Origin: Amoebophrya sp. A120
Lineage: Eukaryota; Protista; Dinoflagellata
Direction: 5' to 3'
DNA: 64,000 nt
Assembly (NCBI GenBank): GCA_905178155.1
Contig: CAJINV010000009.1
Location: 1,856,882 to 1,920,881 of the forward strand
The translations under genes were made by a program, and so were the position numbers. Positions 21,995 to 55,244 of the stretch are shown here, piece after piece. The notes below the pieces were generated by a model. The model was not told the DNA's origin and searched no databases. It was given only the letters and a program-made list of their open reading frames with translations. Each line of letters starts with the position of its first letter. Within the stretch, counting starts at the first letter, position 1.

Positions 21995-24597
21995 CTAAGA
22001 AGGTGCCCTTCCCGTCGCATCTCCTGCCCCTGGTACAACTCCTTCCTCGAGCAATTTACCCAGCAGTGGTCCGATGTTCGCCTCGAGCAATTCGGACTGC
22101 TCTTCGTCGCTCTTGCACTGCCGCCAGCGCCAGTAGCTGAGAGACACCGGGTGGAAACCTAGGTTGTTGAGAATCCGGTGCTTCACCGTGCGGTTAATCG
22201 GACGGTTTGGCGCGTCGAGGTCAATGACCAACTTCGTTTTCTCGTCCGTCAAATCCGCTCGGAGCGAACCAATACGGAATCGCGTGCAAACACGCTGCCA
22301 TCGCCTGAGCCTGACTAGTGACATCATTTCCTGACGGCTTTGTCTCTGTCGAAATCTCTTTTGCTTGTCATTGCTACTGATGTTCTTCGAATGTATGACA
22401 GACACTCCCAACACTCGTCCGTGCTTGCTCACGACGATGCGGATGCGGCTGGTGCTCACCTACAGCGTCTATTTTTCTACTTTAACTTTTTCTATTTCAA
22501 CATCAACTCATGCACGCTCAACTTTATGATTATGCCGCGCTTGTTGGCAGATATTTTTGCTTTTATATCGAAATACTGAAGCGTTGGCATACTGCACCTG
22601 CTATAATCTTGAGCTTCTTGTTCTTTTTTTTTCATGTAACTCTACTAGCATCGCGAAGATAGACTTGCTTTGACTTTCCAGCACGCCTGGGCCATGGCAT
22701 TTTGTTTGTTGCAATTCGTAAAACGTTAGCCGTGCCAATTTCCGCTGCTTTCCTGCGTCCTTGCTCCGTGGCCGTGGCCATGCTCAAGCCCACATTTTGC
22801 TGCAGCTGGATTTTTTGCTTGTGAAACGTGTGCTCCAGCTTAAGGAGCAGCTCTGCCTGCAGTCGACTGCTCTCGTTCTTCGACTGCGCCACAGAGTCTG
22901 CGTCTTCGCACGCAATCTGCCACTGCTTGGAAAGCTGCACCTTGCTAGAAGAAGATGAGCTAGAAGCTGGAGTTGTACTGGTCGAACTTTGCTGTTTGTG
23001 CTTCTTCTCGTCCGAGGTTTTTTTGTCCTGTTCGCCTCGTCCAGGTGCCCCCGCTCCGGCAAATATCTCCCAGTGCTCGAACTGCAGCGACAGCAGGATC
23101 TCGTGCGACTTTGCGAGCAGTACCCGATTTTTGGGCGCCGGCATGGCCATGAGGCGGTCAATCAGGTCTCGGATCCGCACGGAGTACATGTCCTTGTCGA
23201 ACAAATGCTTGAACCTGCAATATCATTTGCAAAACCATCACGCTGGTACTAATCCCAGTCATGCAGCAATACAAATACCTTTTACAAGACAGAAAGACCC
23301 ACTTACCCATAACATTCGTCATGCCACGAAGCGAATTTGTATTGCAATTACGAGGACTGCACTGTCATGATGCTTTTGCAATTCATATGCAAACGCCCCA
23401 AGCCACGTCGATCATGTGGATCATGTAGATGGTTTGGGTCCGGTGCGTGTCCAGAAACCGCGTTCCGAGCAGCTTTACCAGCTCGGTGTCGTCGTACTCC
23501 GGTTGCAGCATCGACAGGCTGAAAAACAGCTTCGCGTTTTCCGCCGCGGAAAGCTGGTTCTGGTCGATCTCCTGTCTCAGGTGGTCCAGCACGTCCTCCA
23601 CGTTTAGTTTCACCAAAAACCGCAACCGGGAGAGGGAGTAGAGCATGCCGACCAACTGTTTCGGCGTGAACACGTGCAGGTTCTCGAAGGCAAGCTGCGC
23701 CAGCCGGCGGAGCAGAAATCCGCGCACCAGGCCCAGATCAGACAGCACTTTCAGTGCGTCCACAATGTCGCGGGACGAGAACCGGTCGACCTCGTCCGTC
23801 ATCCGCTCCACGATCATGTCGTGCATCTCCCGGTCAAAGAAGCCCCAGCGGCGAAAGGCCTCCAGCAAACCGACCGCGTGCGCCGGCTCGATGTCTTGCA
23901 CGACCTTCATAGTCTCCTGCCGCACAAACTCAATTAATTCCACGTCGTGCACCTTGCGACTACTCAGCGCAAGCGCCAGCTGCGCCAGATACCGGGGCGA
24001 AAACGCGTTCTCCCTTTGCCTAATCGTGGTGGCGAGGCTCTGAACCAGGTCCTCCAGCTCGGGCGTGTTGAAACGCAGCTTCGCGAGCGCGTCGGCTAAT
24101 TGTGCCAGCGAGCGCGCGTCGATCAGCGCTGCGTTGTCCACTTTGTCCTTCACTTTTGCCAAAAGAAGGCGGAACCGCTCGTCGGTCGCAATCTCGTTCA
24201 TGTGCTGCGGATTCTGGTGGTTAGAGCTCGCGAGGCCCCGTATCGCCTCTTGCATAGTCGCAAAGTCGATATCCGCGTTCTCACTGAAAAAATCCAGAAT
24301 TTCGAGGCCTTTTCTCTCGCGTATCGCAAGCCGCCGATCTGATGTGTCGGAGTAGGCAAAGCAACGCTTTTGGCGGACGAGAGACGACGCGGCTGCGAAT
24401 TCTGTTGATGTCAGGACCACCTTACAGCCACTTGTTCTCGTCTGCATTCGGGGCATCACCGTCCACATGCTCGCCACGCTCGCCCGCCCAGAACTACTAC
24501 TAGCCTCCCGATGAAACGACCATGTTGCAGAAGACAACCAACCGGCCCCGCCAAGACGGGGGCTGGAACGTTTTGTCAAAGCTCTCCCAGTCGGCAT
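21995..24597 (-). CDS. Helical-repeat RAP-domain (FASTK-like) RNA-binding protein, 3 exons
   Basis: Repeats FSPRYLAQL, FSSRDIVDAL, FTPKQLVGML; C-terminal RAP-like LVIDLDAP..KHRILNNLGFHPVSLSYWRW; non-canonical intron 23221-23392 and probable GT-AG intron about 22460-22664. Confidence 0.85.
23221..23387. mobile_element. Introner-like non-canonical intron (167 bp core, direct repeat TGCAA)
   Basis: Left end TATCATTTGCAAAACCATCA versus reverse-complemented right end TATGAATTGCAAAAGCATCA (17/20); TGCAA at 23216-23220 and 23388-23392; removal gives WGVC-R-FKHLF in frame. Confidence 0.9.
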
Positions 24598-25857: not shown

Positions 25858-28800
25858 TCACGTAGGACAGGACGGACAGCTCGGGTCTTCTGGAGAAGAA
25901 GTGGCAGGAGCGTGATTTGTGTTCTCCTTCTCCTGCTTGCCAGCACTTACTGACGTAGCACCAAGCTCGGGACGAGCTTGCGCTTGGTGAACCGAGGAGG
26001 ACTGCATTGTAGTTTCGCCGGCACCTCCTCCTCCAGCGCCGTGGGCGGAAACTGCAGGGCTAACTACCGGGAGGCAGTGCCCAGTGCTTTTGTCCATCCG
26101 GCATTTCAAACCGCTCGCAAATTCGCATTGACGGACCTGCCATTCGGTTGCCTCCGTCGCATCTCCTGGGAGGATCACGCTTTTCTCGTCGCAATCAAAG
26201 CACGTCTCTACCATCGCTTTCTCGTTCGGGTTTTCGATGCTTGTCCAAACACAACGACGTGCAAGACCGAACCTCGCTGTCCCGAAGTCAGAACGAAAAA
26301 CACCGACAGCATCCCAAATGCAAATGACCCCCAAAAACCGACTCGACATTGCCTAAGTCGTGACCATGTGCTGTACAACTGTTCATCAAGACATGAAAAA
26401 AAAAATGCATACTTTTTCTTGCATTACTAGCGCATTTGAAAATAGTAAACCTCCACCTATCGTCATCGTCTGAGCGCGAAGAAACTTGAAACCTACCTGC
26501 CAGCCAAGTTAGTTGTAGTGAAAAGTGTGCGAGCTCTCTTTGTGAGTGTTGAGGTTATTTTTTGAGTTTGCATTTTTTGCAACAGTCTTGGGATCATCTG
26601 CTGTACGGGGTGTTGGCAGTGTTCGCATTGAGATAAACCCCGTCGGAGTTACAGACCGATGGCGATTTGAAGCTTGCGCACGTTGTCGGTTGTTTGTGAT
26701 AACAACGGGTCTCGAAGCCAGCTGGAGCAAGATCTTTCTGCCAGGCGTCTTTCAAGTGAGCGTTCTTCTCCTTCGTGTCGTCTTCCGGCGCCTCCTTCCG
26801 AAACAGAATGCAGTTGGAATCGGCAAGAGCATTGGCGCCTGTAGGATCCGTTTCGCGCATCAGCATGTATGCGGTACAATGCAAGTCCGCGCTGCAGAGG
26901 TCGGCGCAAAACCAGAAGGAGCCAAAGGGAGTTGAATCAACGGTCGCGTCGTGGCTGTAGGGAACAAACTGGCTGCTCGAGCAAGCCTCTTTCGATCCGT
27001 CACTTTTTTCGCAGTTGCACCAACCAGGGTCTGCTTGCGAAACGTACTCCGGAGAATACCACGGAGCAACATGTTCAGATGACTCAGGTGCATCAGTAGA
27101 CTGAGCATCATCTTGCGGGAACATACACTCGTGGCCGACATGCTTCAGCAGAGCATCTCTATGAGCGACAGGCAAGCCCAAAATAGCATCTCCCTGGAGG
27201 ATCGTTTCGTCGTGTTGCGTCCCACCGGCAGCTCCACCCTTCTTGTGTATTGCGAGGTCGTACCGCATCGGAAATAAAGCGCTGTTAGCATCGACCGACC
27301 CCGTTGGGCACCCGACCCCGTTGCCCTGTGCTCCCGACGGGTGACAACAGGCCCCCTTGCGCTGCCCGTCAAACGAATCGCACTTGTCGCACCAGCCCGT
27401 TTGTCTGTCGCAGGTCACGAAGCAGTCGTTTTGGTGGCGCCAGAACCACGTTTCGTCTCCCGGCACCGCGTTGTCTTCAGCGGTCGATACTTTTCCGAAT
27501 GTCTCGGCAATGCAGCCGTCACACTTGGACTCGTGTAGCTTAACTGAGCGGCCAACTTGTGCCCCGGGAAACACGCACTCCGCGTGCTTTGCAATTTCTT
27601 CTGGTACTACAGAATCGCCGATGAAGTCGCTTCGCACCAGTGACGTTTCGGGGCCGGCCGTTCCACTAGCTGCTTCAGTTGTATTAGTTCTTGTCCCCTT
27701 GAAGCGCAGGGGAAAATCATTTGGCCAACTCGTGTGTGTGCAAGCTTCGGACGTGTGTCCTACTTTCGACACGTTACAGCACGCACCGGAGCGAGTACCG
27801 TCTCGCGAATCACACTTGTTGCACCAGCCAGTTTTGTCGCCGCAGGTTACGAAACAGTCCCCGTCGTGGCGCCAGGTCCAGTCCCATTGCTCCTCGCGTG
27901 AAGAGCCATCTGCGAGACTGACAGTGACCGTGATTGTAGCACTACTGTCGGCAGTCTGGAAGCATCCGTCGCACTTCGATTCCTGTAGCTTGGCGCACGC
28001 GCGGCCGTGACACTTCTCCCCCAGCAGAGCTACGCGATACTGGTTAGAAGGTTGGTTTTTTTCGCCCGTGACCAACTCTGGCAACTTCGGAGGCCCGATG
28101 TCACTGCCCACTTCAATCTTGCGCATGCAGTGATAGTCCTCAAGAAAAGAAGAAGGAGAGGCCGTAGAGGGGGCGGCTTTCGCAGCTGGTGGCTCCTTCT
28201 CCTCCGCAACTCCGTCGACGTCCGCGTTGTTCTCGGGCCGAAATAGTGTGCAGCGGTCCATCTCGACCTCCGTGCCCTCGCTGCTGGTTGTTTGTACAAA
28301 GGCCTTGCACCTTCCGTCGTTGTTGCACAATTCACTGCAAGATTTCCGTGTGTTGCCGCTTCTCGCCAGCAAAAATTGCTTTTCGCCGGCGCACGTTTGA
28401 CCGCCACACTGACACCATCCCCGACCCAAACTTGTGTACCCGAAGTTGCGTATGTGTGGTAGCACGCATTGGTCGTAGTCCCGTGCATGGGGTTTAAACT
28501 GGGTCTGCAAAAGGGGGTTGTATTCCTGGCGACATTCCGGCGGCTGCATTTTGTTGTCTGCGAGGTCCGTGTCTCGAAAAGCTCGGCAGCAGGCACCCGA
28601 ACGAGTGCCGTCGTTGGAATCGCATTTGTTGCACCAACCTGGTGCGTAATCGCCCCCTCCGCCACAGGTGCCCCAGCACTCGTTGGGACGATTACCACAT
28701 CCCTCGCACTGCGTTTGTTTCGAGCGGCGGCATTCGGGGGTCATTTCAACGGCGTCGGTACCATGGTTCGGCTTCAACGCAAAAAAATTCGGCTGGTCGT

Positions 28801-31800
28801 GAATGAAGCAGGTTGGGAGAAACTCGTCCGGCGGTCTTGGCGCGCCGCCTCTGTTTTTTCCAACTTTCCGCTTCACGCTACTTTTGCAAGCGTCTTCCGT
28901 CTTGTCTATGAGGATCGCCGAGTCCCAATGCAAATTGTATTCCACCTCGACCGTGAGAGAGCTCACCGCGTTTTCTTGTCTATTCTGGAGATGACAATTA
29001 ATATTGTTCCCGGTGGCTGCCTTTTCGAAGTAAAACCCTCTGCAATCAGGACTATCAAAGCACTGAGTGTAGCAGTCTTGGAATGTGTCTGCCGTGACCG
29101 CTTTCGTCTCTGTTTGCCTTTGCGACGGATCTGGACGCATCAAGCGGACCTTCTGCCTCTTCAAGCGTCCGCATTCCGCCTGCTCTCTTTTCACTTTTTC
29201 CTTGCAAGATTCGAAGCTACTTTCTTGTTGTTCGCTCTCCCGCTCCATCACGACGGAGTCAAAAGAGGGCTCGCTGATGGTAGCAGTCTCCGGATTCATT
29301 GTTGATCTCAAAAAGCAGTTGGGGTCGTTTGCTGCTGCTGCATCTTCTTTCTGTGCCGCATTCTTGTTGTACGTGAAACCTTTGCAGTCGGTTTCTTGCA
29401 AGCACAACAGCCAGCACTTCTCAAACGGCAGGTCCGCTACGACTGCGAATACGCCGGTACCGTCGACTGGAAATTTTATGTTCTTCAAACGGACGCAGGT
29501 ATCGGTAACGTCGCGCGACCAGGGCAGCACATGGCGTGTCACGGGGACTGGCGGAAAGCAGGTCTCTTCATCTTGTTCCACAAGACCTCCTCCCGCCACG
29601 CGGTCCAACACCACCGAGTCACAACAATTGTCCTTCCTGGCCTTCTCAGTCGCCACCGCTTCGTCCGTGAGGAAAAGGGCACAGCTCTCATCGTTGCCGG
29701 CAGTAGCGGTGCCGTCTTTCCTGTGGGTAAAGCCCTTGCAGTCCGAGTTGTTTGCGCAGGCCGTCCAACATTCCTCAAAGGTGAGCTTGCCCGTCGGTTC
29801 TTCCGGACTTTTAAAGTCCTTGAACTCCCCTGCTAAGTACGTTACATCTTCCAAGCGCCGGCATGTAGGTACAGGTGGCGCGTCACAGATCGAGCCATCT
29901 TCCCGCTTCAAGAACACAGAATCGAAATCGTATATGTGGTATTGAAAATCGGGATCGGGATCACCCATGTCCGACTTGAGGATACAGTTTGATGTCAACA
30001 CGGTCGCATCGTCCGGGACGTGTTTTCCGTACACAAAGCCTACGCACTTGTCGTGGGCTTTACAAGCCGCCCAACACTGTTCGAAAGTGACTAGCCCATC
30101 CATGTTCCCGTGCACATCCGTGCCTACGTACTCCACGTTTTCGATCCGCGTGCAAAATTTTTCGGCCGCGGTCCGGCTCACAGCAACACTGAGGGGATTG
30201 GCGTCGTGCACAATCTTGGTCCGTGCGAAGGTGAACCCGTTACAGGCCTCGGTCTCTTATGCATTCAAACTTTTTATTTGCCCACGCTGAAGACCCAAGA
30301 AAGTTCCTCCACTGTTACTGTTTCGAATTGCAGGTGAGGCAGACCAGGACGAGAAAGATTACACACAAGAAGACGAGGCTCAGCACGAGCAGGGCAGAAC
30401 CATGCAAAAGTTGTGTTCACAAGACATGATACTCAAATCAATGTCAATGTCCGACAAAACCAGAAGTCGAGGAATAACTTTGATGCCGATCCGCCGGATA
30501 AGAGACATAGCATTAGCATTACCGAGGCGGTTCAAATAAAAGTATTGGAATACAGGTGATTCTAATATTCTCTGATGAAGATCAGCATGGCCCGCAAACA
30601 GGCGCAAGCTTTGCAAGAGCAAGTGCACGTGCTACTTCGCAAGAAATACAAGCCAAGCCCCTCCATACGATGCAGTTGCAGCAGAAAGATGCACGTCTGC
30701 TTACAATCTAATCATGAAATTCATGAAAATCAAATACACGTTTTCAATTTCAATCATACATTTATTTTGGGCGCAACGGGCATAAAAAATTGGAATTGCG
30801 TTGTATTGCATAACTCGACGCACAGATTCAGGCACTCTTCGTAGGTGCGCACGTCCTGGACGAATCGCGAACCCACGCCGTGGTTTTCGTAGCCGGAGTG
30901 CTTCATATTTGTCTGTCGGACGCAGCCTTTCTGGATGCCACCGCCGGCGCCACTGGTAAGGGCAAACGCCTGCGTCGTCGCGACGCTCTGTCCGAGGCGT
31001 GCCTGGTCACCGCAATGATAGTACTTGATTTCCATGGTGTCGGTGCCTTCATGTAGTTTTCGATCCACGCCAATGTGCGTCACCATTTGAGGGGTGCGTA
31101 GGTCAGGTTGATTTACCGTAATGTGGTCGCCATTGATCCCGCACTTGTATCGCACACCATATTGTATCTCGCTTACACTTTTCACGGATGTAGAAAATAG
31201 GCCGTAGTAATCCCAGGCCTTGGCGTCTGAGCAAACTGATTCGTGCCTCCACAGCACGTGCGTACGCGGAGTATCAGAAGAAATTTCACCGTGCTCGGCC
31301 TCTACCACGTCCTGGGAAATGCTGGGATCAGCACCGCCGGGGAAGACAGCAGCCTTATCGCAGCTCGTCTCGTGCTTAATGTGCAGCTGGGTGCAGCGGC
31401 TGCATAGGGTGTTTGTAAATTCTTGGCGCGCGAGGTCGGAGTACGGCTGCCACAGCGGCGCCACGTCGGAGATCTGGAGTTTGGTAAGTAAATCTTTGAG
31501 GTGCGCGGCATCGAGCTCCTCCTTCTCCAGATCTGCGTACAGTTCCGTGGGCAGCAGCATGTGCTTGGGCACCTGCTCCGCCGCACGCCCCGCTCGCGCG
31601 AATTTCTCCAGGTGCACGCCCACAGCGAGGGCCTCGCTCAGCAACTGCCCCGTCACGCGAGACAGATCCACGATGTCCTCCGAGACCAACACGGGCTGTG
31701 TCAGGCGCGCCACGGTTTTTAGATACAGCTCGAGCAACTCGTCCTCTTGATCCCGGAACACCTGGAGCAACTGTAGCCACTCCCCCTCCAGCGTTTGAAA

Positions 31801-34800
31801 CCGCTCCTCGGCGTTGTCTTTTCGGATCTCCTGCAGCTGCTGCATCGCCTCCACCTCGAGCTGGTCCATGTCACCGTTTTGCCCTGCACCATCTCCACTA
31901 CTAGTACTGCTCGTCGATTGCGCTGCTCTCTGCCCCCGCGCAAGATTGTGCTCCAGCGCTGAGAAATCTTCCCGTTCCCTGGTGGAGTGCGCACGTCGCC
32001 CCGTTCTTTCGGTGAAACTGCTCGTGGCCATCGCCGCGGATGGTCCGGGTGAGCCGTATTGCAAGGACGGCAGCTCTCCGATTTTTCTTTCTGCAAAGTC
32101 CATCTCGCCCGACAAGTCGCTTTGCAGTTTTTTCCCGCTGCAAACCTGCTGATCGCTGGCGTAGTCCTCCGTGTCTGCGCGCGCTTCGCCGGAGTGGTCC
32201 TTCTCGTCGAAATCTAGAGCCGGTGCTTGAAAAAAGTCCCGGTGCTATCCTGTGCAAAAAAATTCACATTGCCTTCGTGAAGCTTCACTGCCTTTTTGAT
32301 AAAATGACTATATCATATTGAAATGCACCAGAGCGCAACAACGCCGATGAAGTTCCAGTTTTCCCATATCATATGTTTGCTTTCTACGCATTTGGTTACC
32401 AGATGATAGTCAGCGTACTGGAGTGACAGAATTTAATTCGCTTCACGACACTTCGTGGTCCAGGCTGCCACCGCTGACCACAGGAAGACTTTTATCTGCT
32501 CGTCATGCTCGTCCTTGCTCCTAGGTGCTACTTCATGGTGATACGTGCCCGTCCAATTCTTGCATGCACCACGGAGATCTCAAGTACTCTCACACGATCA
32601 TATATTATATATGACTGTAGTGAATCGAGGGAATAGGGAGAGCGGAATAGGGAGAATAGGTCAATAGGGAGAGCCGTGGTAAACCTAATTCCCCTTGAAT
32701 CGCGATGGTATGCTCCCTTTTGGTACTTAAGCCGTAGAACCAAAAAAAATTCGCGCGCGCGCTGCGCGCGCGCATTCACTCACCCCATACGCACCCAATG
32801 GCGTTGCATCGATTCGAAGGCAAACGAGAACCGCGCGCCCGTTGAATCATCGAAGGAAATTTGAAGTGGCCACTTCAACTTTCCCTCATCGAAGGAAAAT
32901 CGAATATGCCCACTTCCACTTTCCCTCACCGAGGGAAATTTGAAATGGCCACTTCAACTTTCCCTCATCGAAGGAAATTTGAAATGGCCACTCTACCTCT
33001 CCGCCTTCGCCAGCTGACGAGCAAGACCTAAGCCCTACGGGCCCGCAAGAGGATAAAGCCCCTCAGGGAAGGTTCCGCGCCTCCCCGACCCCGGGAGGAG
33101 CCGCCGAGGAGGGGGGTACTCGGAAGCATTTCCGCCCCAGATTTCGAAAGATGTTGTCGCGGCCGCGCCGTGCTGTTTGCGATCAGTTTGGTTTTGTTTT
33201 TGCTGCCCCCTTTTAGGGGGACTCTCCCTACTCTCCCTATCTCTCCCTATTCCCTATTGCTATTCTATAAAGCGTTCTAATATATCAGTAGCAGCACCCG
33301 CCGTTTCGTTTGAATGACTAAAGCAAATAAATGACATGTGTAAATGCTCTTACGGCTGCAGTATGCAAAGTCAAAGACAAAGAATCCTTGCGCAGGATAG
33401 CTCCAAGACCTCCGCTACGCGCTGCTCCGCAAGGTCCAGTGCGGTTTTGAAGTAGGCGGGGCTCTCCTCGCCGTCCGCGAGAAGCTGGAATCCGAACCAT
33501 TTGATCAGCTCCAAGAGGCGGAAGGCAGCGAGCCGCAGAACAAACACTTGGTGCAGCAGTACTTCCCGACGCCCGATGATGCTACGGTGCTGGCGCAGCT
33601 GCTCCGTATTCTTGTCGAACAGGGGACTTACCAGCAGTGCCTGGACCGCTGTGTCCAGATTCGTCACGTACACCTTTGACAGCTCTGGTCTTTGCTGCCC
33701 TGCTTCTTGCGCCCCCGCCTCCTCCCCGGCTGGTCCTTGGAGGCGCTGCACCTCCTCAGCAGCACCGGACCAACCGGTGTCGAGACAGATCTCGGGCGTC
33801 TTCTCCGCCGACAACTCCCCGGCACCTTGAGGCAGATGAGCTGTGGCAGCTGCACCACCGCCGGCCTCCTCGGCGGAGTAAAATCGATACAGGGCGTGAA
33901 ATTTCCTTTGAGTGCCGGAGTGGGGGCTGCCAGTTTGGCCGCCGCAGTGCCCGAAACCGACCACACGCTTGCGATTCACGAGGGGTGGTGGGTTCTGGTT
34001 GGGCGAGACCGGTCTGTCATTGTGGTGCTCCGTGCTAGCGTCGCCGAATTTGCAGTTGCCCCAGCACTTTTGGTCTGAAACTCGGTCTTCGGCGTCATAC
34101 ATCTGCGAGATCGTCGAAGACGTGGTCCCGATGCCGTGCTTCTGATGGCAAATGCATTCTTTTGATGCATCGATCGAAAAATACTCATACATTCTGTCCT
34201 CGCGGCCGCAATGGTCCGCGCACTCGTAGACGGAGCGATCTGCGTGCCCCTCTGTCAGTCCCTCGTTTCCGCGCAGCGCCTCGTAGCAGCCGACGTACTC
34301 GAAGTCGTTTTCTCGGTCAACCATGGAGAGCTCCAATGCCCGCCGCGTCTGCTCTGCCACCGGGAGATACCCGACCGCCGAAAGCGAGGGCGCCAAGCCG
34401 CCCGTCGAGACCGCGCTCATGTCGTACTCCTGTCGCTCCGTGTACATGTGTTCAAACACCGAGTTGTGCCAGCCGCCTCCGCAAATGTTCACATCGAAAT
34501 GGTTTTCGTGGCACTCCTTTTGGCACTCTTTCTCTTCTGCGTGTCCATGCTTTCCAAACCCAGCCTTCCGCTGTCGGTCACTACACCAACACTCATTGTG
34601 GTCCTGAATCGCGAAGTAGCGGTACCCCTTGCACGCTGTACCACACTCGTCTATGGTATACTTTCTGCCAATAGGCTTTTCCATGGCGCGTTCGTCCCCA
34701 TTTTTGTCCTTAAAGCACCCGATGTACTTGCGCCATTGCACCCGGTCGGACATGCGAGCTTGCAAGCCCCTCAAGGCGAAGCGCGCGCTGTCGTGGTTGC

Positions 34801-43326: not shown

Positions 43327-46300
43327 CTTGATCTTCTGTTCTGACGTTGTATCCAGAACCTTATGGACGCGATGGCTTCGTAGTTCCGATTAAGGACTAG
43401 AACAGGTGGAGCTGATGCAACAACACAGCACACTGTCAGCGTCCTTCTCACCAGAGTCGTGATTTCCGCAGAGCAGAATGAGCTTCGACGACGACAGAGG
43501 CCACGTCATTTGTTTTCAAGCGGATAAAGCGCATCTGCACGGAAATCTATAGCTAGAGTGTGGTCCACGTTACAGTTACTACATATACATACAGATACTT
43601 GCATACGATATACGCTTCTGCCAGCGCCGTTCGTTGTACGTGTGCGCGGCAGGAGCACCTCTACCGCTGCACTGAAATGCGCAAAAACACAGAAACAAGT
43701 ATCTATGGTTATTTTACGTAGCTACGATGGTCATCTTCCTGAGTAGCAGAAGACGTTTGTCTGCAACTGTTTCCCTGAGGACATACGAATACTTTCCCAC
43801 AACTTTACGAGCACAGTCAATATGTTAACCTTCGTCTGGTTTCTGGCTTTCCGTTTCCTAATCGCGGGCCGCGATTAGGAAAACGTTGTTTTGTGACGCA
43901 CGATCTTGTCTTTGACGAACAACAACGAAGCGGCGGACAATACGAAGCGTGCAAAGTAATTCATTGGAAAAACAACGACGACCCAGAAACTTGCGACGCC
44001 CCCGACAAGAATGATTGCTCTTTCTGTGCCCACGACGAAATGTGTATCAGTAGTGCGCACGACGACGAAATCTCTTCATGTTCAATCAACATTCTTCAAC
44101 GATGCACAACATGCTGAAAAGTTGCGTTTCTCCTGGTCCTGTCCGGGAAAACACGCGGCCAGCAGAGCAGTGCCAGTGGTCCGTCCTGGTTGCTCAAAGT
44201 CACACCGAACAAAAAGGTCGAACCAGAAGTACGATAATCGTACTTAATCCTTCGCCTGGTTGCACTTGCATAGCTGTTTTGTTTGGAAATAGCCATCTGT
44301 AGACGAGTTTTAGACCACAGAATCAGCGAGAAAACAAAGAGTAGTGTTTACTTGGTGAAGCTGTATTCAACAAATTGAATTTGAAACGAATGTTAATCCG
44401 TGGTAGTAATGCAGCGAAATGGAGGTTACAACTTCGGATCACTAATTTTCTCTCTAGTACTAGTCGTTGATGCATGTTGAAAGACAAAGACTATATTAAG
44501 CGCTTGTATATTTCAGTTCATCGATAAATATGTTGCTTCCTCCAGTAAAGTTTGTGTGACTGGGCCAGAGGAGCTCCGCGCACACGCTAGTTTCTATTGG
44601 TATTGTTTCTGCTACCCTGCGAAATTTTTTGCAATCCACTGCAACGCGGCGATTGTCCTGTACTCGAGTTGTTCCTGTTACTGCTCACTAAATGTGTTTT
44701 GTTTATTTCAGATTGATTCCGTATCCCCATACTGATTCTAAAACTTACTATGGTTTAGCTACAACAACTTCATCACTGGTTGTTTTTGTTCAATACTATC
44801 ACTACTTTCTTTTCGAAGTTCTCTCATTTAGATTTAGTCAAAGCACGCCCGATTTCTTCTTTCTTGCAAGACGTAGGAGCTCACGAAGTCTTAATTCTTT
44901 ATTATCCCAAAGATACAACTCATACTCATGTTCACTGCAAGATGAACCATGATAAAATGTTATTATCAGGTGGATTTAAGTCTCTAATTATTATGTGTGA
45001 ATATTATTTGTGTAAAAAGGTTATTCTTCATATTCACGGCAAATCGAAACGGTATCCGTAGTTGAGGTTGAGCCACCCAGGAAAAAGGAGCTGTTTCCCA
45101 ACTTCTTGTTTAATGGAAGCCGAATTCTGTGGCACTTCTATTACTATTCCGAAACGAATGTGTAAGAGCGGAAACGGCAGCTAAACTGGATATAATTACT
45201 TATGATAACCTCATCTCTACTATTTTTTGTTCTTTATTCTTGGCAGCTCGCTGCATCGGTCGTGCTTACTATTATTTAGTTAAGTAAGTGGCTGCTATGC
45301 TGGTGGCCGCGCTACGCTCATCTCGAGCTGCAATGACCACATGAAGCCACAAAATTCTTCAAAATAGATAGTTTTCCACATCGGCAGCGATATAATTCGT
45401 TCGATAATTGCACCCTCGTTTATGGTTTTGGCTACCACCTGAAGTGATGTTCGTGAGGTTCTAAAAAATGGTGCGATTCATCTCCTGTGCTCTTCATGTC
45501 AGTCTTAATGCTGCAGCTTCGTGGTCCGTCGTGCAGCAAACGACCTCGTCATTGATGCACTTTTTTCACGAACTTGTGCGGTGACGGCGGTGGACGATGC
45601 GTCGGCGAGGTATGCAGAGAAAAACGACAATGTCAATCATATCGAGCAGAAGTCTGCAAGTCCCATTTTTTTTTTATCTTTGCGTGTACTCGGAGTCAGA
45701 TGTTGATGTAAGTCGGACTGGCTCCACCTATGCATAGTGACAACTAGATCAGCATCCCTGCTTTTGGAGAAGGCCTGAGTTCCGTTCATACATTTGAAAA
45801 AGATGCTTGTTTCAACATCATGGTCGAGCAAAAACGCGCGCATCTACGAAGACCACGAACCTTGACTCGATGACTCAATGTCGTGCTAGTTTACCCACAT
45901 AGATTGGCGGAATTCGGTTCTCACCCTGTATCGCAGCCAAAAAGAGTACAACCAACTGAGTCAAATTGCAAATCGATACTTAAAGCACAAAAAGGTACAC
46001 GACAAGGGTGGTGCTGTTGCGATCATGATACAGATACGGCAAACCATCATCTTCATCAAATTAATAGAGATATTTTTGGTGAGCGCCACACTGCATCGCA
46101 AATTGCCCTCACCAATCATTATCTGGTTTGCCAAAATTCAAATTGTAAATCACATGATAAATAAGACTATATTATTTCATCCATTACATGGCAAGAATCG
46201 GTGGAACTGACCACGTCGCTGGTTGCCATTTCTGTTCTTTTCGTACCGGGCTGCAATGGTGCGTCATTGGCGGAAACCTAAAATTTAAATTTTCGAAATA

Positions 46301-46901
46301 GTTTTCTCAACTGTCCTGCACGTGCGCTCGCTTTTTTTTCAAACATTTGTTTTTTTTTGTTTTTGTATAGCGTTTGGCGCATCATCAGTCTACACTTCGT
46401 TTCAAAACGAAAGTCTTCGAAGCGAAGCTCTACTCTGCGATGTTATCACTAAGAAACAACATCTGTGACCACGCGTTGCATGCCGCCGGTACTGGGAGTC
46501 TGCAACTCCTTTCCACTGTGCTCGTAGTAGGCGACAGCCGCGCTCTTCGAGCGCAAGCCACTTGTGTGTTCCTCCTCCGCACCTCCTTCATTTGACGTGC
46601 TAGCGCTCCTGTGCCGGTTGTTTTGATGGTGCGATAAAAGTCCTAAAAAAAGTTGCGACGTCAGTATCCAGTGTGAGTCGATGGATCGCGTTCGCTCCAG
46701 TTGTTATTGACATCGACAGCATTTTTGACTGCCTTGAACAGCAATTTTGCTTTGAACATCTCCTACTTCTACTTGGATCCCAGTGAAGATATTAATACGA
46801 CTGTCGTCTGCTATCAAAGCAAGGGAGTAGACGCGCTAGCGGAGCCGGCGCCATAAGTAAAGAGGAAAAAACCAAAAAAAAAAAAGATCCATCAAGGCGT
46901 C

Positions 46902-49900
46902 TTACGCTGTCCCTTGTGCGGCCAGAAAGCCATCGCCCGTTGGCCACGTCATGGTGCTCGCCAAAGCCGGCGGAGGGTGGTCCGGTAGATGCGTGGGGTC
47001 GTCGGTCTCCAGCAAAGTGATGCCAGGCGGCGAACGCGTCGGAGTTTTCTTCGGCGACTTTCTGGCCGACATGCTCATGGAGAGATTGACTGGAGGATCC
47101 GCGATGGAATACGAGTGCGCGACAAGGTTCGGATCCGTGGCCGCGTGCGTCATCGGGAGCTGGTGGTAAGCCCCAGCCTCGGTGGAGGACTCGTGATGGT
47201 GCTGCTGTAGCACCGGGGATAGCAACTGCACGGGGTGCTGACCTTGCATCGTGCTATGATGATCTTCACGCAACAAGGTAGTGTGGTTCTCGCCTCCACC
47301 CGTGCTGACAGCGGCGAGGTGATGCGCGGCCTGATAGTGGTCTTGACTGATGCTCGTCAAATGCGCGCTCGTCCCCAACTGATCATGTGGTGCGGGTGAC
47401 GTGGACAAAGCCGCCTGCATAGCTGCATTGTAATGCTGCAGAACACTGTGTTGATCCGCAAGTTCGTGGAGAAGTTGCTGGCCGTGCTGATGATCGTGGT
47501 GCTGCAGCGTCGCAGCAGCCGCTCCACTCGCATTGGCATTTGTTGCGCCTGAGTTTGTTGTTCCGTAAAACGACGACTGTTGCTGCGTCAGTTCCGGCTG
47601 CGAAGACGGGTGGTCTACTACGCCGCCCGGCGTACTCGCGTTGCCGCCTGCAAAGCCAACGTGATTCTGGTGGTTGCTTTGAGCACCATGCAGAGCTTGG
47701 TGCGGCGCTCCAGCACCCGGCGCGGTGGCGGCCGCCATAGCTGCGACAGCACCGGCTGCACTGGCACCGGAGATGTACAATGCATGCTGGTGAACAAGCT
47801 CCTGGTAGCTGTTAGCGTAAGAATCGGACAACGGCGACGCGTTGTAGTTGCTGTGGTCAGCGGTCGGCATGGTTCCCATTTGGGCATAGTGCTGTGCCGC
47901 GCCGGCATTGGTCGACGCTCCGCCCGCAGCTCCGGGCGTCGTGGAAGTACCGTACTGGGTCGCACAACTGCTGTTGTAGTTGTGGTGCTGGTGATGTTGG
48001 TGCCCATGCCCGCCACCGCCCGAAGTCGAGTGCATCTGGTGGTCTTGGTGTGGTGAGTTTGCGGCAACAGCAACAAAACTGTGCTGAATAGTCCCGTGTT
48101 GATGCTGGTGGTGGTGATGCTGCTGCTGGTGGGCCGCTGCTGCCGTCGCACTCTGGTGCTGGTTGTGCATGGCCGGCTGGTGGTGCTGCTGCTGTTGCGC
48201 CGCAGGACCAGCTGCCCCCAAGTGGTGCAGATCACTCGATTGATGGTGTTGACCACTGAAGTGATTCTGCATCAGATGCAGCCCGTTGCCGGTACTGGCC
48301 CCGCCTTGATGCGCCGACGCGGCGCCGGCGGTCGTGTTCGCACCGGAAGTGCTGGCAGCCAGCAGCTGCTGTTGGTTGTACTGCTGCTCAAACAGCGAAG
48401 CCGCGGCACTAGATTGATGCTGGTGGGGCGTTACTGCCGACGAATTCTGACTGTATAAGAGCTGCTGAAAGTCCTGGGAGTCCACCGCCCCGAACGTGCT
48501 TGTCCCGAAAGAGTTCATCGTTGTGGAGCGGTTCGCGCTTGCCAGGGAGTTGAAAGACTGCGAGTGCTTGTTCGACGCATTCATCGCCTGCTGCTGCGGC
48601 CCCCCGCGGCCGCCGGTAAAGTTGGTGTTGGTAATGGTGTTCAGCGAGGTCGCGCGGGCGCCCACCTGCTGCGGCCCGTTGCAGTTCTGCATCAGCCCCT
48701 GACTCAAGGCTTCCGACGTCGAAACCTAAGGAGCGAGATGGCTCAGTGGACGAAGTATTTTTCTTTTATTCATCAACGCAGAAAATATAGAAGTTTTAGA
48801 TTTAGTACGCATCATCGATCATCCCAACTCCAGCGCAACTTGGATAATGGGCTGCAGCAGCTCGCCTGCACTACACAAACAGTACGTAGTAGGCAAGAAG
48901 ATCCGTTTCAATTATACTGCCGGGCGCTCGTCACGAAGGTAAATTTTCGGCAGGCCTTCTGGCGGCGGCGGCTTTCTGCCACCGTCGACGCCCGTGACCT
49001 GGTCTTCCGCGATCCACTTCTGCACCTGGTGAGACCACTCGCTGCGCAGGCAGACGTCGTGGGCCGCCTGGTACACGGTGAAACGGTACTTCAAGTCGTT
49101 CGCGGACATGGTGTGGAGAATCTCCCGAAAATGCTTCAACACTCGCACTATCAAATGTAAAAATGTCTGGGTCTCCTGGAAACTTGTGACGCTGGGTCGC
49201 GTATCATGAGGAAGCCATAAGCGCTGGCTCAGCATGACAAGTTGCTGAGCTTCTAGGTGTTGCCTATTCTGCATGACAAACTGCGTTTTTGCAGGACAGG
49301 AAATTGGGGCTCTTGGGTAACCTGCATGACAGGTTTAAGTTCAAGAGTCATGCCAGAGAAGCATGACAAATCGCGCATTCTTCCAGACCCAGACATTTTT
49401 ACACTTGATACGCACAGCGCTGATCGAATCGTGGAGCGCCCCGTGGCACCGAATCAAACTTGCAAACGTGTGCGCGTTCAGCGGGCGCACGTACTGGAAC
49501 ATTTGCGACACCTGGGTACATTTAGTTGGAAAATGTGGGCGTGTGGGTACGGTATGATGGTGAAGTGCGGGCGTACGACGCCGGCATGCACCGTTTGCAC
49601 GATGGTGCGTGGTCTACGAGAGCTCAGCTCACGTCTTCTCGATTTCGCTGATCCGCGAAATTTTAAAATTTTATTTTTATTGCAAGAATATTTGAAATCC
49701 AAAGAAAATGCAAATCATTAACTATGTATGCATGTTGTAATCGTGTGATATGGAGTCTATCATACTTTGTTCCACGTAACAAGCCGCGAAATATTAAAGT
49801 TTCATTTTTTTTGTAGATGAAAATCCGCGAAATTTCAAAAATTTATTTTTATAGAGAACACATGAAAGTGTCGAAATGTAGTTTCCGGAACGAAGCGATT

Positions 49901-51317
49901 GAGCGCCCGAGTGTATTCAGAAATAAAAATACGAATACCTTCTCGTAACCTTCCAGGCTCGGATCGCGCGAGAAGATCAGGCAATAGATCGAAAAAAAAT
50001 GGCTGTTCGGCGCAACGTTGTGCGTGAGCATGAAGGCTCCCACGTAGGAGGCCACTTCAAAGCCCAGCTTGTCCTGGAGAATCACGTCCAGCAGAGCCCG
50101 AAACTCCTCGAGCCGCAACTGGTTATTCTGCTTCCGGCGGGCCATCTGCTCGGCCGCGTGGCGCAGCCGCTCGTTCTTCGACAGCCACCGCGTCCACAGG
50201 GTGCACTCCCGCCCGTGGCTCCCGCCGCCACGACCAGCTGAATGGTGGCCCCGACCGCGGGTGTGGTGGTGCGCGTTGTTGTAGCCGCTTGCGTTGCCAC
50301 CCCCGTAATGTTGGCTACTACTTCCGCCCAAGATATTGTTGCCACCGGTATTGCCGCTTGCACCACCACCCGTTCCGTTGTTGTCGTGGTCCGAGGCACT
50401 CCCCACCCCATGGCTAGCACCAAGTCCGTTGGCATTGCCATTTTGGTGCTGTTCATCCGGTCCGCCGTGTTTGTTACTGCTGGAGGTCGTCGTGGAGGAC
50501 ACCAGTAAGTCTACGAGCTCGTCAAGCCGGAGGGAGCCACTTTGATGTTGATGATGCGAGGTAGTCGCCGCGGCTGCTCCTGTGCCATTGGCAGCGCTAC
50601 TGTGGTGGTGATTGTTGTACGATCCTCCTCCGAAGGTGGCTGCGTACGAAGAGTTATTGTGCAGGGTGCTGCTGTTTGACGAGGCTAGAGTGCCGGCACC
50701 GTTCGTCGCCCCGTTGCTTCTCTGGTGGTTGTAGTGATGTTGCCCGCCAGCACCGGCACGGGCCGCCATCTTATTACTCGAGCTTAGCATCGTGGTGGTC
50801 CCAGTAGCGGTTCCGCCGTTCGCAGCAGCGCTCCTGTTGCCTCCAGCAGCATTATAGTCTGGCTGCTGCGGCCCATCGCTGTGGCCACGGTGCAGGTTCG
50901 CAATGCCCCCTCCTCCTGCGGAAGTTCCGCCGACACCTCCACCGATGCTGTCAGTTTATGTTTCTGATGAAATAATCTTCTTGATGCCACTGTTTTTAAT
51001 ATTACACAACGATGCGTACAACCATGGTACCGATATCTGCCCTGGTTGCTAGAGTTGGTTTATGCTTATCATGGATGCTGGAAGTTAGCAAGCATCTGCT
51101 CATGTTGATCTTTGTCTTCCTCACCGAGATCCACTCGCTGTCAGTGCTATGATGAAGATGTCTAGAGCCCCCGCAAACAACTTATATCGACATCAAGTTC
51201 ATCCAAGAACCTGCTCCAAGTCGACGAATCCAGATGATCCCAAGCGTTCGGCCCCTGGTCTTGCCACTGCGCATTCGAATTCGTATCCTGCCAGCCCGAA
51301 GCGGCGTCGCTCGTCAT
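46902..51317 (-). CDS. PPR-like motif protein with long Gln/His/Gly/Ala low-complexity arms, at least 5 exons
   Basis: GT-AG introns 48726-48917 and 49512-49938 plus introner 49149-49415 give MLTHNVAPNSHFF..PLNAHTFASLIRCHGALHDSISAVRVLKHF; first exon (about 51317-51185) and its junction are uncertain. Confidence 0.72.
49149..49410. mobile_element. Introner-like non-canonical intron (262 bp core, direct repeat CGCAC)
   Basis: 26-bp terminal inverted repeat TATCAA(A/G)TGTAAAAATGTCTGGGTCT with one mismatch; CGCAC at 49144-49148 and 49411-49415. Confidence 0.95.
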
Positions 51318-52360
51318 GTTGCTGTTGGTGCCTTCTACGTATTTCTTGCTACAACTTGATGACGCCTGAAGAACACGACTACCGCTGCTGTCGTCAAAAA
51401 GCTGCGACCACTAAAACGTCAGCCTCTGCACCCAGTCGCCGACCTGCTAAGTCAAACAGAAAATCTAACAAAGATAGAGAGATACTTTTGTGTGCTAGTA
51501 CTACTACAGAACAAAAATTCATATTTACCCAAACATGCAAAATTCCCTGCCGCGGTCGCTCCTTACTCTCTTTCTTTCCTTCATACGCAACACCCGCACC
51601 CAATCCGAAATATGAGAAAAAAAAACGACGACGACCTGTAATATTGGCGCTCAGTGTCATTGCGCTAGCAGACGACACAGGCATTCCTAATTCCCCCACT
51701 CCCCTGCTGAAACCGATCTTCATCTTGATTCTTGCAAGGCTTCCTCTCATCACTCAGTTGGGGCATAGAAATTTCGAGGTTTGCATTGCACGGTGGCAAG
51801 ACATACTTTTACTTCATCACTTCTATTGCTAGTAGAGCAGGTCTGAATTGTCTTGGACATGAATTGGGACACCTCTCGACAGCACGAGCACGACCAAACT
51901 ATTCGTTTTCTTTGACTCGCCGTCTGGCATCCTGTCCTTTTCCGTATTGACGATTCCATGATGAAGGAGGTCCGTGGCAGCTCATGAAGCCCAATAAAGC
52001 AGAGACCAAAGAACAAATTTGAATACAAGCGAACATCGCACTGCACAGCGGATTCTCTCCTGCGAGGCTGAGAGCTGCGCTTATTTCGCAATCGCTGTCG
52101 TGAACTCATGTCGTCGTGCCCCGGTGCCGGAGTAATCACGGAACCATAGGTGAGAAAGAGAGGGACAAACTACTATGGTATTACTGTTCATCGAGCTAGC
52201 TACAGCTCAAAGAACTACTACTTCAAGTTTCTTTTCTTGTCGCTGAATATTTGTCGCCGGAGGTGTGGTTGGGGTTGAGCTTGGAGGAGAAAACAGATTC
52301 TACCGCGTTTTCAAGTTTGTAGAAGTAGAACTTCGATTAATATCGATACCCTTGGTCCTC

Positions 52361-55244
52361 CTACAAGTCTTGATCTTTTCCCCTAGTACCGCCTCGACTA
52401 TACACCGAGGATGGTCGGCTATTTTTGCCCGCTGTCGTCCCTCGATTTCCGCCGGAGGTCTGTGAGGAGGAAGATCCGCCACCTGTTCGAGGACTGCTGC
52501 TCGCAGTACTTCTGGACTGCTGTGATCTAGTTGTGGTTCTACTATTCGAGGCGGCGCGGTCGCTCTTCTCGTCTCCCGAAGAATCAGCGTAGGAGTGCCC
52601 CCCGCCGTACTGATTTGTCGAGCTATCGTAAGGAAAAATCCCCCCTCCCCATATCGAAAACGAAACTTGTGTTGCTGTGTTTGAGTACACAAATCACATT
52701 TGTCTTGCAGTAAGGCACTCCGGCCAGATCCGCAGCCTAGGTGGGAGAGCTCAGGTCTAGTTGTTCAGCATTGCAAAAGGCTACCCTCTAGGACCAAGAG
52801 CATGCCAAATCGCTTCACAATTGGGCAGATGCCTCTGCGCTTGTCCTTTTGCAAGACAAACCTGATTTGTGGCCACAAATCAGCAACACAAATTTTCGGA
52901 AACATACCTTTTTGATATGGGGAGGGGGGATTTTTCCTCTCAATACGAGCCGCCGCTTCTACTATGCTGGCCGTGACTCGGGGCGCCGCCCATGCTGTAG
53001 CCGCTGCTGGTGCCACCTCCCCCACCCATGCCACCGAAAAAGTGGGTAGCGGCGTGGTAGAGTTTCGGGTGGCTGGATTTGATGGTCTCGAGCTTGTCGC
53101 AGGAGGTCTTCGGCATGGACTTGGCTCGCTCCATCTCCTTCGACCGGGAGGTCGGATCGGCGATTTTCCGTGCCTGCATCACGCGCTTCCACATTTTCTT
53201 TTCCTGGTACTCGCACTCCGACTGCTGGGAGCGGATGAACTGCATCTCCACCTCCTCCTCCAGCTCCAGCCGGTTCGCTTTGTTTTTCGGAAACTGCTGG
53301 TTAAAGTCCCGTTCGCTGTGGACAAAATACTGCGCCTTCAGCCGCGACGTCTTCTGCTCCACCTGGAACGTCGAGTCGCGCGTCAGGGAAAACCTGTTTA
53401 GTCGTAGTTGCAGGGAAAGATAAGAAGAGCTAACTACAGCGATGAGGCCGTGACTTCTTATTTCCATCGCAATTTTTTGCTATTCCTAGCTAGTACCGAA
53501 CAATGGTGCAAAACTGTCGAACCTATGTTGCCAAGGTACAAAAAAGAGTCTTTTTTTCTTGTATGAGCATAGGAATTCTTTGGGAATTCAAAATAGCGAA
53601 GCGAAAAAAATAGTGCTAAGTAGTACACTCGATGGGTCCTTGGCTGGAATATTCCGGACGACGTAAGTGCGGTGAGAATGACGAAGAGCAGGGGGAGTAA
53701 ATTCAAAAGTTGTTGTCGCTGTACGTCTTCTGGAGCTGTTTTCATTTTTTTTTTTGCGCATGAATGTGACAATCACAATGCTCGTCTTGGTCATCGAAGT
53801 GTACCACTGCATTATGTAAATCAACGGGACCAAGTCCAAGAGCACCACAACCGCGTGCTACACAAAGGCAAATCCAGCACTAGTCTATGTGAATTATCTT
53901 TTCCGCACCTGCTTGCTGCTGCTGTCGCTGCGCGCCGCGAGCACCTCCAGGGTGCCTGTTCTGCTGCTGCATCCGACCCCCGTTGAAGAACATGTCGAAA
54001 AAGTCGTTTGCTGTCATAAACTCCTCCTGGCGAAAATTTGTCTGCTGCTCAGCTCGATCGGGATCGCCACATTGGTCGTAGATGCGTCTGTGTGTAGGAA
54101 AAAAAATGCCAGACTAGAAAGGTTTTTCATGATTTCATAGTTGCGACGTGGCTGCGAGAGCAACATCAGTGATTTCATCATGATTATGGCTTCAAAATCT
54201 AAATCGTACCAACAACGTGCCAAAAATTAGACGTACCTTTTATTTGTGTCTTCCAGACACTGCACGGCTTTGCTGAGTTTTTTGAAGGCTTCTTCCGCGC
54301 CCGGCGCCCCGTTCTTGTCCGGGTGCAGCTTGAGCGCCAGCTTCTTGTAGGCCTTTTTGATTTCGTCGACCGAGGCCGTTTTTGTCAGCCCCATCAATGC
54401 GTAGAAGTCCTTGGTGCGGAGAATTTTCTGCACGAGCTGCATTTGCTCCGGCGTGTACTCCCGTTTGGGCTGCGTGGCGGCCTTGGCGCTCGCGCTCGAA
54501 CTGGTACCTGCTCGGCCCGCTGCGGTGGGGCGCGTAGTTTGACTCGACGAGGACGACGAAGAGCCGCCGCTGTTCGGTGCGGCACCTCCTCGACTCGTCG
54601 GGTTATTTGCTGCCCCAGCACCTCCTGCTCGCGCGTTCGCGGTGGCACCAGCAGTTCGTGGTTGCTGCGCCCCCGCTGTAGTGGGCCCAGCGCCGGCGCG
54701 CGGCCTCTGGTGCTGGCCGGCGGTGGCTCCGCCGGTTGCTGCCCCATTAGTGCTGGTGGTTCCGCGCCTGCTGTTGGCACGCCTTCTGGCGCTGCCGCCG
54801 CTGCGATTCCTCGCGTTCTGCTGAGCTTGGCGGGAGAGGTACGCGGTGAGAAGGCTGCGCATGGCACCCGGATCGGCGCCCAGCCTGACAGCCTTTTCCA
54901 TGAACCTGGTTTGTGTTTTCAATGATGCTCTCGTTGCACTTTTCCTTGACTTCATGCTCTTGTCTGGTGTCGTGGTCAAAAATTACAACAAGATGAATTT
55001 CATCAAAGCATCATGAAGAGTTAGAGTGATATACATCCGCGTGGTCATCATCTTAGTGAATGATCATTATCTTTTACACGACTAACCGGCAGTAAATTCA
55101 TCTTGCCACTACTAGCAAAATCTTCAGCAAAAAGTATAAATCGAGAGAGTACTTCTGCGCTTTCTCCTTGTCGCCCTGGGAGATCGCTTCCCGCATGCGC
55201 GCTGTACACTGATCCACACCATCTTGGTTAATGTTCGCGGTCAT
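52361..55244 (-). CDS. ER-type J-domain co-chaperone, DNAJB12/14-like (J domain, TM segment, DUF1977-like region), 6 exons
   Basis: KKAYKKLALKLHPDKNGAPGAEEAFK; N-terminal GDKEKAQK-FMEKA; TM LLPLLFVIL; GT-AG introns 54906-55152, 54088-54236 and 53736-53908; probable GA-AG intron 53394-53638; introner 52624-52950. Confidence 0.9.
52624..52945. mobile_element. Introner-like non-canonical intron (322 bp core, direct repeat CGAGC, inverted repeats of about 90-100 bp)
   Basis: TAT..AGGAAAAATCCCCCCTCCCCATATC..TTGTGTTGCTG..CACAAATCA..TTTGTCTTGCA mirrored at both ends; CGAGC at 52619-52623 and 52946-52950; removal gives RSGGS|TNQYGGG. Confidence 0.95.

What the first reader, a model, noticed from the sequence alone, without database searches (positions are those of the whole stretch)
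23221..52945. A system of transposon-like non-GT-AG introns sharing (T)TAT...ATA(A) ends
Seen: seven insertions in four genes (23221, 30257, 32245, 36577, 39030, 49149, 52624) have inverted termini starting at or one base from TAT/TTAT, direct repeats of 2-5 bp and unrelated interiors. Each interrupts the frame with stops, and removing it with one repeat copy restores the frame. No register of the repeat gives GT-AG. Known: Amoebophrya genomes are reported to carry non-canonical introner elements with inverted and direct repeats, and their splicing mechanism is unresolved. Inference: these are non-autonomous DNA transposons, mobilised in trans through the shared terminal motif and removed from RNA by stem-guided splicing, alongside about ten canonical introns in the window.
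Basis: partly seen in the sequence, partly recalled or inferred. Interest (0 to 1): 0.9.

Follow-up and report, generated by a model that had tools for sequence, protein, structure and literature searches.

The report
Transposon introns cut at fixed offsets
Genes of the marine parasite Amoebophrya A120 carry already-published transposon-derived introns that lack the usual GT-AG ends, and in this window they are cut out of the RNA at a fixed distance from the transposon ends (1 base before, 4 after), which likely is the splicing rule the original paper left open.

Summary
The window is Amoebophrya sp. A120: two spliced gene models equal its deposited proteins, and the insertions are its published introner elements. 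Five more such introns were missed.

Refinements:
(1) The '2-5 bp repeats' are one 5-bp target-site duplication (94 of 107 family copies in another assembly).
(2) All 10 RNA-backed junctions fit intron = 1 nt + TAT…ATA element + 4 nt; 4 cannot slide, and nearby AGs are skipped. I found no such rule in the papers read, but could not see their figures.

No transposase was found; the candidate is a published integrase-like A120 family with 5-bp TSD and TA/TA ends. The splicing machinery is untested. The scan noted position-set non-canonical introns in other genomes before.

The parts
21995..24597 (-). Gene A, RAP/FAST-like protein, 660 aa, two non-canonical introns
   Evidence: spliced model identical to A120 protein P0001; Pfam RAP
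22274..22721 (-).
   Evidence: joint in X1, X2, X4
23217..23388 (-). Intron 172 nt = A + element 23221-23387 + TTGC; 5-bp TSD intact
   Evidence: joint in X1, X2, X4; homologs run without a gap across the junction residue
25858..39719 (-). Gene B, predicted 3630-aa protein with PAN and WSC domains, five non-canonical introns
26282..26636 (-).
   Evidence: joint in X1, X3, X4
30254..30813 (-). Intron 560 nt = T + element 30258-30812 + AGAG
   Evidence: joint in X3 (side 255) and X4 (side 28)
32242..33400 (-). Predicted intron 1159 nt around element 32246-33399; holds a 39-bp tandem array and inner inverted repeats; junction not observed
   Evidence: frame restored with 1159 or 1156 nt removed; X3 contigs stop at 32235 and 33409
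36575..37104 (-). Intron 530 nt, AT..CT, cannot slide; an AG ending 2 nt upstream of the used end is skipped
   Evidence: joint in X3 only
39027..39391 (-). Intron 365 nt = A + element 39031-39390 + AACG
   Evidence: joint in X3 only, listed as 'between: not known'
41314..41561 (-).
   Evidence: the same loose end at 41313, continuing at 41562, in X1-X4
45549..50145 (-). Gene C, 867 aa, four GT-AG and three non-canonical introns
   Evidence: spliced model identical to A120 protein P0021
45607..45902 (-).
   Evidence: 3' side seen as a contig piece end at 45606; 5' side from P0021 plus the 191-nt hidden length of the contig
45925..46246 (-).
   Evidence: P0021 plus the 191-nt hidden length
49145..49411 (-). 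Intron 267 nt = G + element 49149-49410 + GTGC; young copy of a high-copy 250-270-nt family; TSD intact
   Evidence: P0021 identity; A25 protein P0020 and P0022 run without a gap across the site; family depth; copies; no RNA joint shown
52361..55256 (-). Gene D, DnaJ + DUF1977 protein, 588 aa
52620..52946 (-). Intron 327 nt = G + element 52624-52945 + GCTC; copy of a 322-nt family; TSD intact
   Evidence: X1 and X2 contigs resume at 52618, and the hidden 736 nt equal the three exons exactly

Best explanation
These are Amoebophrya A120 introner elements: short inverted-repeat transposons with TAT(C/G)…(C/G)ATA ends and a 5-bp target-site duplication, cut out of the RNA as 1 base + element + 4 bases without GT-AG, likely by a relaxed spliceosome that reads the end motif. 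Shown: the fixed ends, the 5-bp duplication, high copy number, removal of element+5 nt, and the 1/4 split at four junctions that cannot slide. Inferred: removing exactly one duplication restores the original mRNA. Because both ends carry the same motif, an insertion in either orientation at almost any site would become a clean intron. The offset puts TAT at intron positions +2 to +4, like the host's own GTAY donors without the G, and the 3' cut would be measured from the ATA instead of found by an AG. The stem may help young copies but is predicted not to be needed. The mobiliser would be an integrase-like (Ginger/Tdd-type) transposase acting in trans; it was not found here.
For: RNA: six joints and one loose end, contig length arithmetic. 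All 10 remove element+5 nt. The four non-slidable ones have TAT at +2..+4 (4 of 4) and ATA at -7..-5 (3 of 4); each trinucleotide occurs at about 0.016 per position in these introns. Two junctions (45607, 45925) were placed after the rule was written down (note). A motif matrix built only from another assembly scores best at 3' offset 4 in 12 of 12 and 5' offset 1 in 11 of 12, and never above 2.4 in 9 GT-AG introns. AGs 1-3 nt from the used end are skipped at 36575, 41314 and 45925. All 9 commonest A120 non-canonical pairs in Farhat Table S4 start N-T. TSD: 94 of 107 family copies have an exact 5-bp repeat, against 1, 1 and 0 for 3, 4 and 6 bp; across families 199 elements against 0-3 in 10 shuffles. 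Target sites show no marked G(+1) or AG bias: 24 and 12 of 98. Both orientations occur in genes: 10 and 5, 4 and 3. 4 of 9 GT-AG introns here start GTAY and 6 of 9 start GTA. A120 family 38 is listed as Ginger, '5-bp TSD, TA/TA termini'.
Against: Only 10 junctions from one window. For the 6 slidable ones I chose the register that fits, so only the sum of 5 is independent. The rule was drawn from the first three non-slidable cases. The contigs come from one study (2 samples), probably the data behind the annotation, so contigs and deposited proteins are not independent. 26282 fits the motif weakly (5' best offset 3, score at offset 1 is -1.5) and the 5' arm of 45607 scores -1.9. Farhat et al. 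describe splice sites as variable relative to the hairpin and repeats of 3-5 nt, did not detect U1 snRNA or any transposase in A120, and argue against transposase mobilisation. No branch point was identified. Folding predictions miss protein-stabilised stems.
Confidence: 0.6

Rival explanations
1. Same elements and offsets, but the terminal stem positions the cuts: the helix leaves a 1-nt 5' and a 4-nt 3' overhang that the splicing machinery measures.
For: Pairing peaks on that diagonal: 108 pairs against 33-53 on the other diagonals over 11 introns (one row used the over-long 45607-46370 span, later corrected). Young copies fold with probability 0.76-0.99. Non-canonical introns keep 5-13 of 14 pairs against 2-5 for GT-AG introns.
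Against: In-register pairing probability is 0.00, 0.00 and 0.03 for the spliced introns 22274, 45925 and 26282, and 0.12 for 36575. Arm positions 4-7 pair in only 53-81% of 236 copies with an intact TSD. A symmetric motif gives a stem by itself.
Confidence: 0.25
2. A separate, non-spliceosomal nuclease-ligase removes the elements, as proposed for Euglena nonconventional introns.
For: No G(+1) or AG requirement; U1 snRNA not detected in A120; the Euglena precedent with motifs at fixed offsets and circular products.
Against: The 5' end matches the host donor at +2..+4; U2, U4, U5, U6 and 83 of 89 spliceosomal proteins were found; a review reports a U1-70K homolog in A25; tunicates splice non-GT-AG introns with the spliceosome (abstract listing era).
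Confidence: 0.12
3. Splice positions are variable around the hairpin, as published, and the 1/4 rule is a small-sample coincidence.
For: Farhat Fig. 3 and Fig. S23 legends; n = 10 from one window.
Against: 4 of 4 non-slidable junctions agree, and offset 1 is the only one common to all 10. Sliding inside a 5-bp duplication explains the apparent variability.
Confidence: 0.1

Closest known systems
Introner elements / non-canonical introns of Amoebophrya sp. A120 (Farhat et al. 2021, PMC7789003; Gozashti et al. 2025, PMC12130899)
   Same: Same organism and the same annotated introns; TAT start, A-run at arm positions 11-13, inverted and direct repeats, family lengths near 150, 210, 260 and 320 nt.
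   Different: The text reports repeats of 3-5 nt, no clear splicing signature and variable splice sites. Here there is one 5-bp duplication and fixed 1/4 offsets, also in eroded copies. The figures S19-S23 could not be seen and may show this modal geometry; one sentence on the commonest A120 repeat position may describe it.
Euglenid nonconventional introns (PMC12501133, PMC11282704)
   Same: Inverted-repeat ends, no GT-AG, a motif at fixed unequal distances from the two splice sites, probable MITE origin.
   Different: Motif CAG/CTG at +4..6 and -8..-6 (3' overhang 2 nt longer) against TAT/ATA at +2..4 and -7..-5 (3 nt longer); unrelated lineage; circular products reported there, untested here.
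Ginger2/Tdd DNA transposons, and A120 introner family 38
   Same: Inverted repeats with a 5-bp duplication (TDD-4, TDD-5); family 38 has a 5-bp TSD, TA/TA termini and Copia/Gypsy-like ORFs.
   Different: Gingers end in TGTNR and mostly make 4-bp duplications; these end in TATS and encode nothing. The paper's text says family 38 lacks Ginger termini and homology.
Fritillaria borealis non-canonical introns
   Same: Transposon-derived introns with inverted repeats and TSD that lack GT-AG.
   Different: Preferred end dinucleotides (AG-AC, AG-AT) exist there; here the end bases come from the target site and vary freely.

Membership tests
Amoebophrya A120 introner elements | Host genome is A120 | tested here: met
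   P0001 and P0021, named A120 by their source, equal the spliced models
Amoebophrya A120 introner elements | Spliced intron without GT-AG | tested here: met
   10 RNA-backed, 1 annotation-backed, 1 predicted; GT-AG in 0 of 12
Amoebophrya A120 introner elements | 8-20 nt inverted repeat starting TAT, with 3 or more A after 7 variable bases | tested here: met
   eroded in 22274, 26282, 45925
Amoebophrya A120 introner elements | 3-5 nt direct repeat at the boundary | tested here: met
   5/5 in three copies, 4/5 in one, 3/5 in three, 1-2/5 in five
Amoebophrya A120 introner elements | Repeated in the genome | tested here: inconclusive
   met for 49149 and 52624; one 61-nt hit for 23221; no copies found for the rest, and no whole genome was held
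Non-autonomous TIR transposon (MITE) | Fixed termini with differing flanks and a constant TSD | tested here: met
   loose ends at 49410, 52624 and 52945 from 42-69 contigs with agreement 0.35-0.39; 94 of 107 exact 5-bp TSD
Non-autonomous TIR transposon (MITE) | Cognate autonomous partner with the same termini | tested here: inconclusive
   no transposase family among 30 window ORFs or 4 ORFs from 3 long elements; genome not searchable
Ginger/Tdd superfamily | TGTNR termini | tested here: not met
   termini are TATS
Ginger/Tdd superfamily | 4-bp TSD (5 bp in TDD-4/5) | tested here: met
   5 bp, as in TDD-4/5
Ginger/Tdd superfamily | Integrase-like DDE transposase | not testable with these tools
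   the elements are non-coding and no partner sequence was available
U2-type spliceosomal intron | GT/GC donor and AG acceptor | tested here: not met
   only +2 T (12 of 12) and +3 A (12 of 12) match the donor
U2-type spliceosomal intron | Branch point and lariat product | not testable with these tools
   only assembled contigs covered the genes
Euglenid nonconventional intron | CAG/CTG motif near the ends | tested here: not met

The most novel reading that the evidence does not exclude
A120 has a second, GT-AG-independent splicing code written by a transposon end: N|TAY…ATA NNNN|. It is read as sequence at fixed offsets, works in either orientation, outlasts the stem and the duplication, and removes exactly one 5-bp target-site copy. 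One integrase-like transposase system can therefore insert anywhere in genes at no coding cost, which would explain the invasion and unify the thousands of 'variable' non-canonical introns under one rule.
Probability: 0.55. Interest if true: 0.8.

Novelty: already known. Interest (0 to 1): 0.5.

Why it matters
The elements themselves are published, so the finding as written is a rediscovery. How A120 removes about 65% of its introns without GT-AG was left open, with boundaries called variable. A fixed 1/4 rule turns that into one-day tests on existing RNA-seq and a defined minigene design. It would also correct intron boundaries in the annotation and narrow the search for the mobiliser to elements with TATS ends and a 5-bp duplication. 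It parallels the Euglena code in an unrelated lineage.

Tried and rejected
No whole genome was held, so copy numbers come from summed contig depth (not a true copy number) and from another assembly.

Raw RNA run X9 laid 90 reads only on the 30-nt arm 49379-49410 with other flanks and did not cover the genes; it says nothing about this locus. No RNA was laid on 1-21.5 kb or beyond 61.4 kb. The 32246 junction had no contig cover, and the homolog search meant to show its annotated form was blank and capped at 2480 aa.

An apparent exception (45607-46369, element+4) was my indexing error for the GT-AG intron 46609-46905; the gene C models are superseded.

Four viral-contig hits to a 19-nt arm lie in 27-39% GC sequence with no matching second arm or 5-bp repeat, so I take them as chance. 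A test of register from which TSD copy mutates was inconclusive: 22 mismatches, and one of six training genes was in the wrong frame. A de novo matrix scan of the window gave too many chance pairs to call more elements. No branch-point consensus was found by eye, and snRNA sequences were not in the supplement's text.

'Not in print' rests on five searches and the passages read; subscription papers (such as Roy et al. 2023) are outside the library.
Full report
Identity. All long genes of the window lie on the - strand. The first exon of gene A matches P0001 at 100%, named Amoebophrya sp. A120 by its source. My spliced models of genes A and C are letter-identical to P0001 (660 aa) and P0021 (867 aa). 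The window is therefore A120 and these introns are already in its annotation. I read Farhat et al. 2021 (PMC7789003: abstract, sections 10, 11, 12, 16, 32, keyword passages, supplement legends and Table S4 rows). It describes A120 introner ends as TAT, seven variable bases and at least three A, with 3-5 nt direct repeats, no clear splicing signature, splice sites variable relative to the hairpin, no U1 snRNA and no transposase found.

Observation. None of 12 such introns has a GT-AG register.

RNA. Runs X1-X4 are only guessed to be RNA by the tool, but their contigs skip GT-AG introns and one has a poly(A) end, while contigs of X5 run from the flanks into the element arms at depth about 42. 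One search shows joints removing 448, 172, 355, 560, 530 and 365 nt, and a loose end in all four runs that defines 41314-41561. In one search the contigs of gene D resume at 52618, and their hidden 736 nt equal the three intervening exons exactly. The hidden 191 nt of gene C equal the exons implied by P0021, which adds 45607-45902 and 45925-46246. 49149 rests on P0021 and on two orthologs that run without a gap across the site; their genes were not seen, so this is not an empty site at DNA level. 32246 has no covering contig. X1-X4 are one study and two samples, probably the data behind the annotation.

Mobile unit. X5 depth rises from about 42 to 226,528 in the bin of 49149 and to 32,000-36,000 in the bins of 52624, and dozens of contigs leave the window exactly at the element ends with unrelated flanks. 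Of 107 distinct full copies, 94 have an exact flush 5-bp repeat; 3, 4 and 6 bp occur 1, 1 and 0 times. In the same loci, 199 elements with >=11/14 paired bases have a 5-bp repeat, against 14, 10, 2 and 0 for 3, 4, 6 and 7 bp and 0-3 in 10 shuffles. The 236 elements up to 400 nt fall into 15 clusters, 8 with five or more members, all with TAT(C/G)-N4-G-N-AAA ends. Removing element+5 leaves >=300 open nt on both sides in 49 of 183 cases against 11-17 for +3, +4, +6 and +7. These loci were picked by one family's arm, so they may over-represent young copies.

Splice geometry. Every RNA-backed intron is element+5 nt long. Where the duplication has decayed the junction cannot slide (26282, 36575, 41314, 45607), and there the intron is 1 nt + element + 4 nt. 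Offset 1 is the only register common to all ten. The end dinucleotides in that register are TT-GT, AT-GC, TT-GG, TT-AG, AT-CT, AT-CG, GT-CT, CT-TC, GT-GG and GT-TC. At 41314 and 45925 a GT donor and an AG 3 or 1 nt from the used end were available and the AG was not used. A matrix from 131 arms of the other assembly picks 3' offset 4 in 12 of 12 and 5' offset 1 in 11 of 12, and scores no GT-AG intron above 2.4; for slidable introns this is partly by my choice of register. Farhat's nine commonest A120 non-canonical pairs all start N-T, as the rule predicts. Target sites show no marked bias to G at +1 or AG at the end (24 and 12 of 98), and both orientations occur.

Mechanism. Shown: fixed ends, 5-bp duplication, removal of element+5, and the 1/4 split at four sites. 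Inferred: the machinery reads the end motif. TAT at +2..+4 copies the host donor (6 of 9 GT-AG introns start GTA, 4 of 9 GTAY), which favours a spliceosome relaxed at +1 and at the acceptor. Three spliced copies have a predicted in-register pairing of 0.00-0.03, which argues against the stem as the only guide, though young copies fold strongly. Nothing here tests lariats, snRNAs or proteins.

Mobiliser. None was found. Gozashti et al. 2025 (PMC12130899: keyword passages, and parts 16-17 of 33 of supplementary file 8) list A120 family 38 as Ginger with a 5-bp TSD and TA/TA termini, and describe ORFs similar to Copia/Gypsy elements between inverted repeats. Their TSD calls for the other families I saw vary from 2 to 9. 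Bao et al. 2010 (PMC2836005, passages) give TGTNR ends and 4-bp TSD for Gingers and 5 bp for TDD-4/5. An integrase-like partner is therefore a lead (about 0.45), not a result.

Comparison. The Euglena code (PMC12501133, sections 5 and 12 and passages) was found by the same use of non-slidable introns and is the closest working analogue. Also seen as keyword passages only: PMC11282704, PMC12005148, PMC12787238, PMC11453091, PMC13326754, PMC9860276. None of these passages states a fixed offset for A120. Figures are not held, and Farhat's Figs 3 and S19-S23 may show it. Earlier notes of this scan report position-set non-canonical introns in other protist genomes; I did not test them, and they came after my reading was set.

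Verdict. Real, and a known class in a known genome. The added value is a single 5-bp duplication and a probable fixed splicing rule that makes the open mechanism testable.

Noticed in passing
window 1-77 and 78-190: Tandem array of a 10-base unit (GGGTTGCGGA, 7.7 copies) at the window start, followed by about 110 bases of nearly pure A/T. It looks telomere-like, but the G-rich strand points inward and it differs from the TTTAGGG reported for dinoflagellates.
   Followed up: no
window 49651-49697, 49823-49867, 4736-4781: A repeat of about 45 nt occurs twice inside the GT-AG intron 49512-49938 and once upstream; X5 depth is about 1,050 in that bin, so it is a second repeat family without TAT..ATA ends.
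   Followed up: partly
window 32626-33258: Inside the longest element: a GC-rich core with a self-complementary 39-bp tandem array (32847-32992) between inverted CTCTCCCTAT repeats. It may be a nested mobile element; no ORF over 83 aa.
   Followed up: partly
window 25858-39719: Predicted 3630-aa protein with PAN and WSC domains and a hydrophobic N-terminus, a plausible surface or adhesion protein of the parasite. All five of its introns are non-canonical.
   Followed up: partly
window 404-722 and 2523-2816: A diverged duplication (78-83% identity in two pieces) near the window start.
   Followed up: no
run X9 on window 49379-49410: A later RNA run with the same species label holds the 30-nt arm at 95-99% identity at one other locus (87 reads) but covers none of the genes laid: possibly another strain with the same family retained in a transcript.
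   Followed up: no
loci L005-L140: Another assembly carries the same families (best copies 87% and 82% identical to the 49149 and 52624 elements) at high density, 244 elements in 384 kb of partly overlapping loci; some loci hold ten.
   Followed up: partly
window 43854-43882: A 29-nt near-perfect palindrome in intergenic DNA.
   Followed up: no
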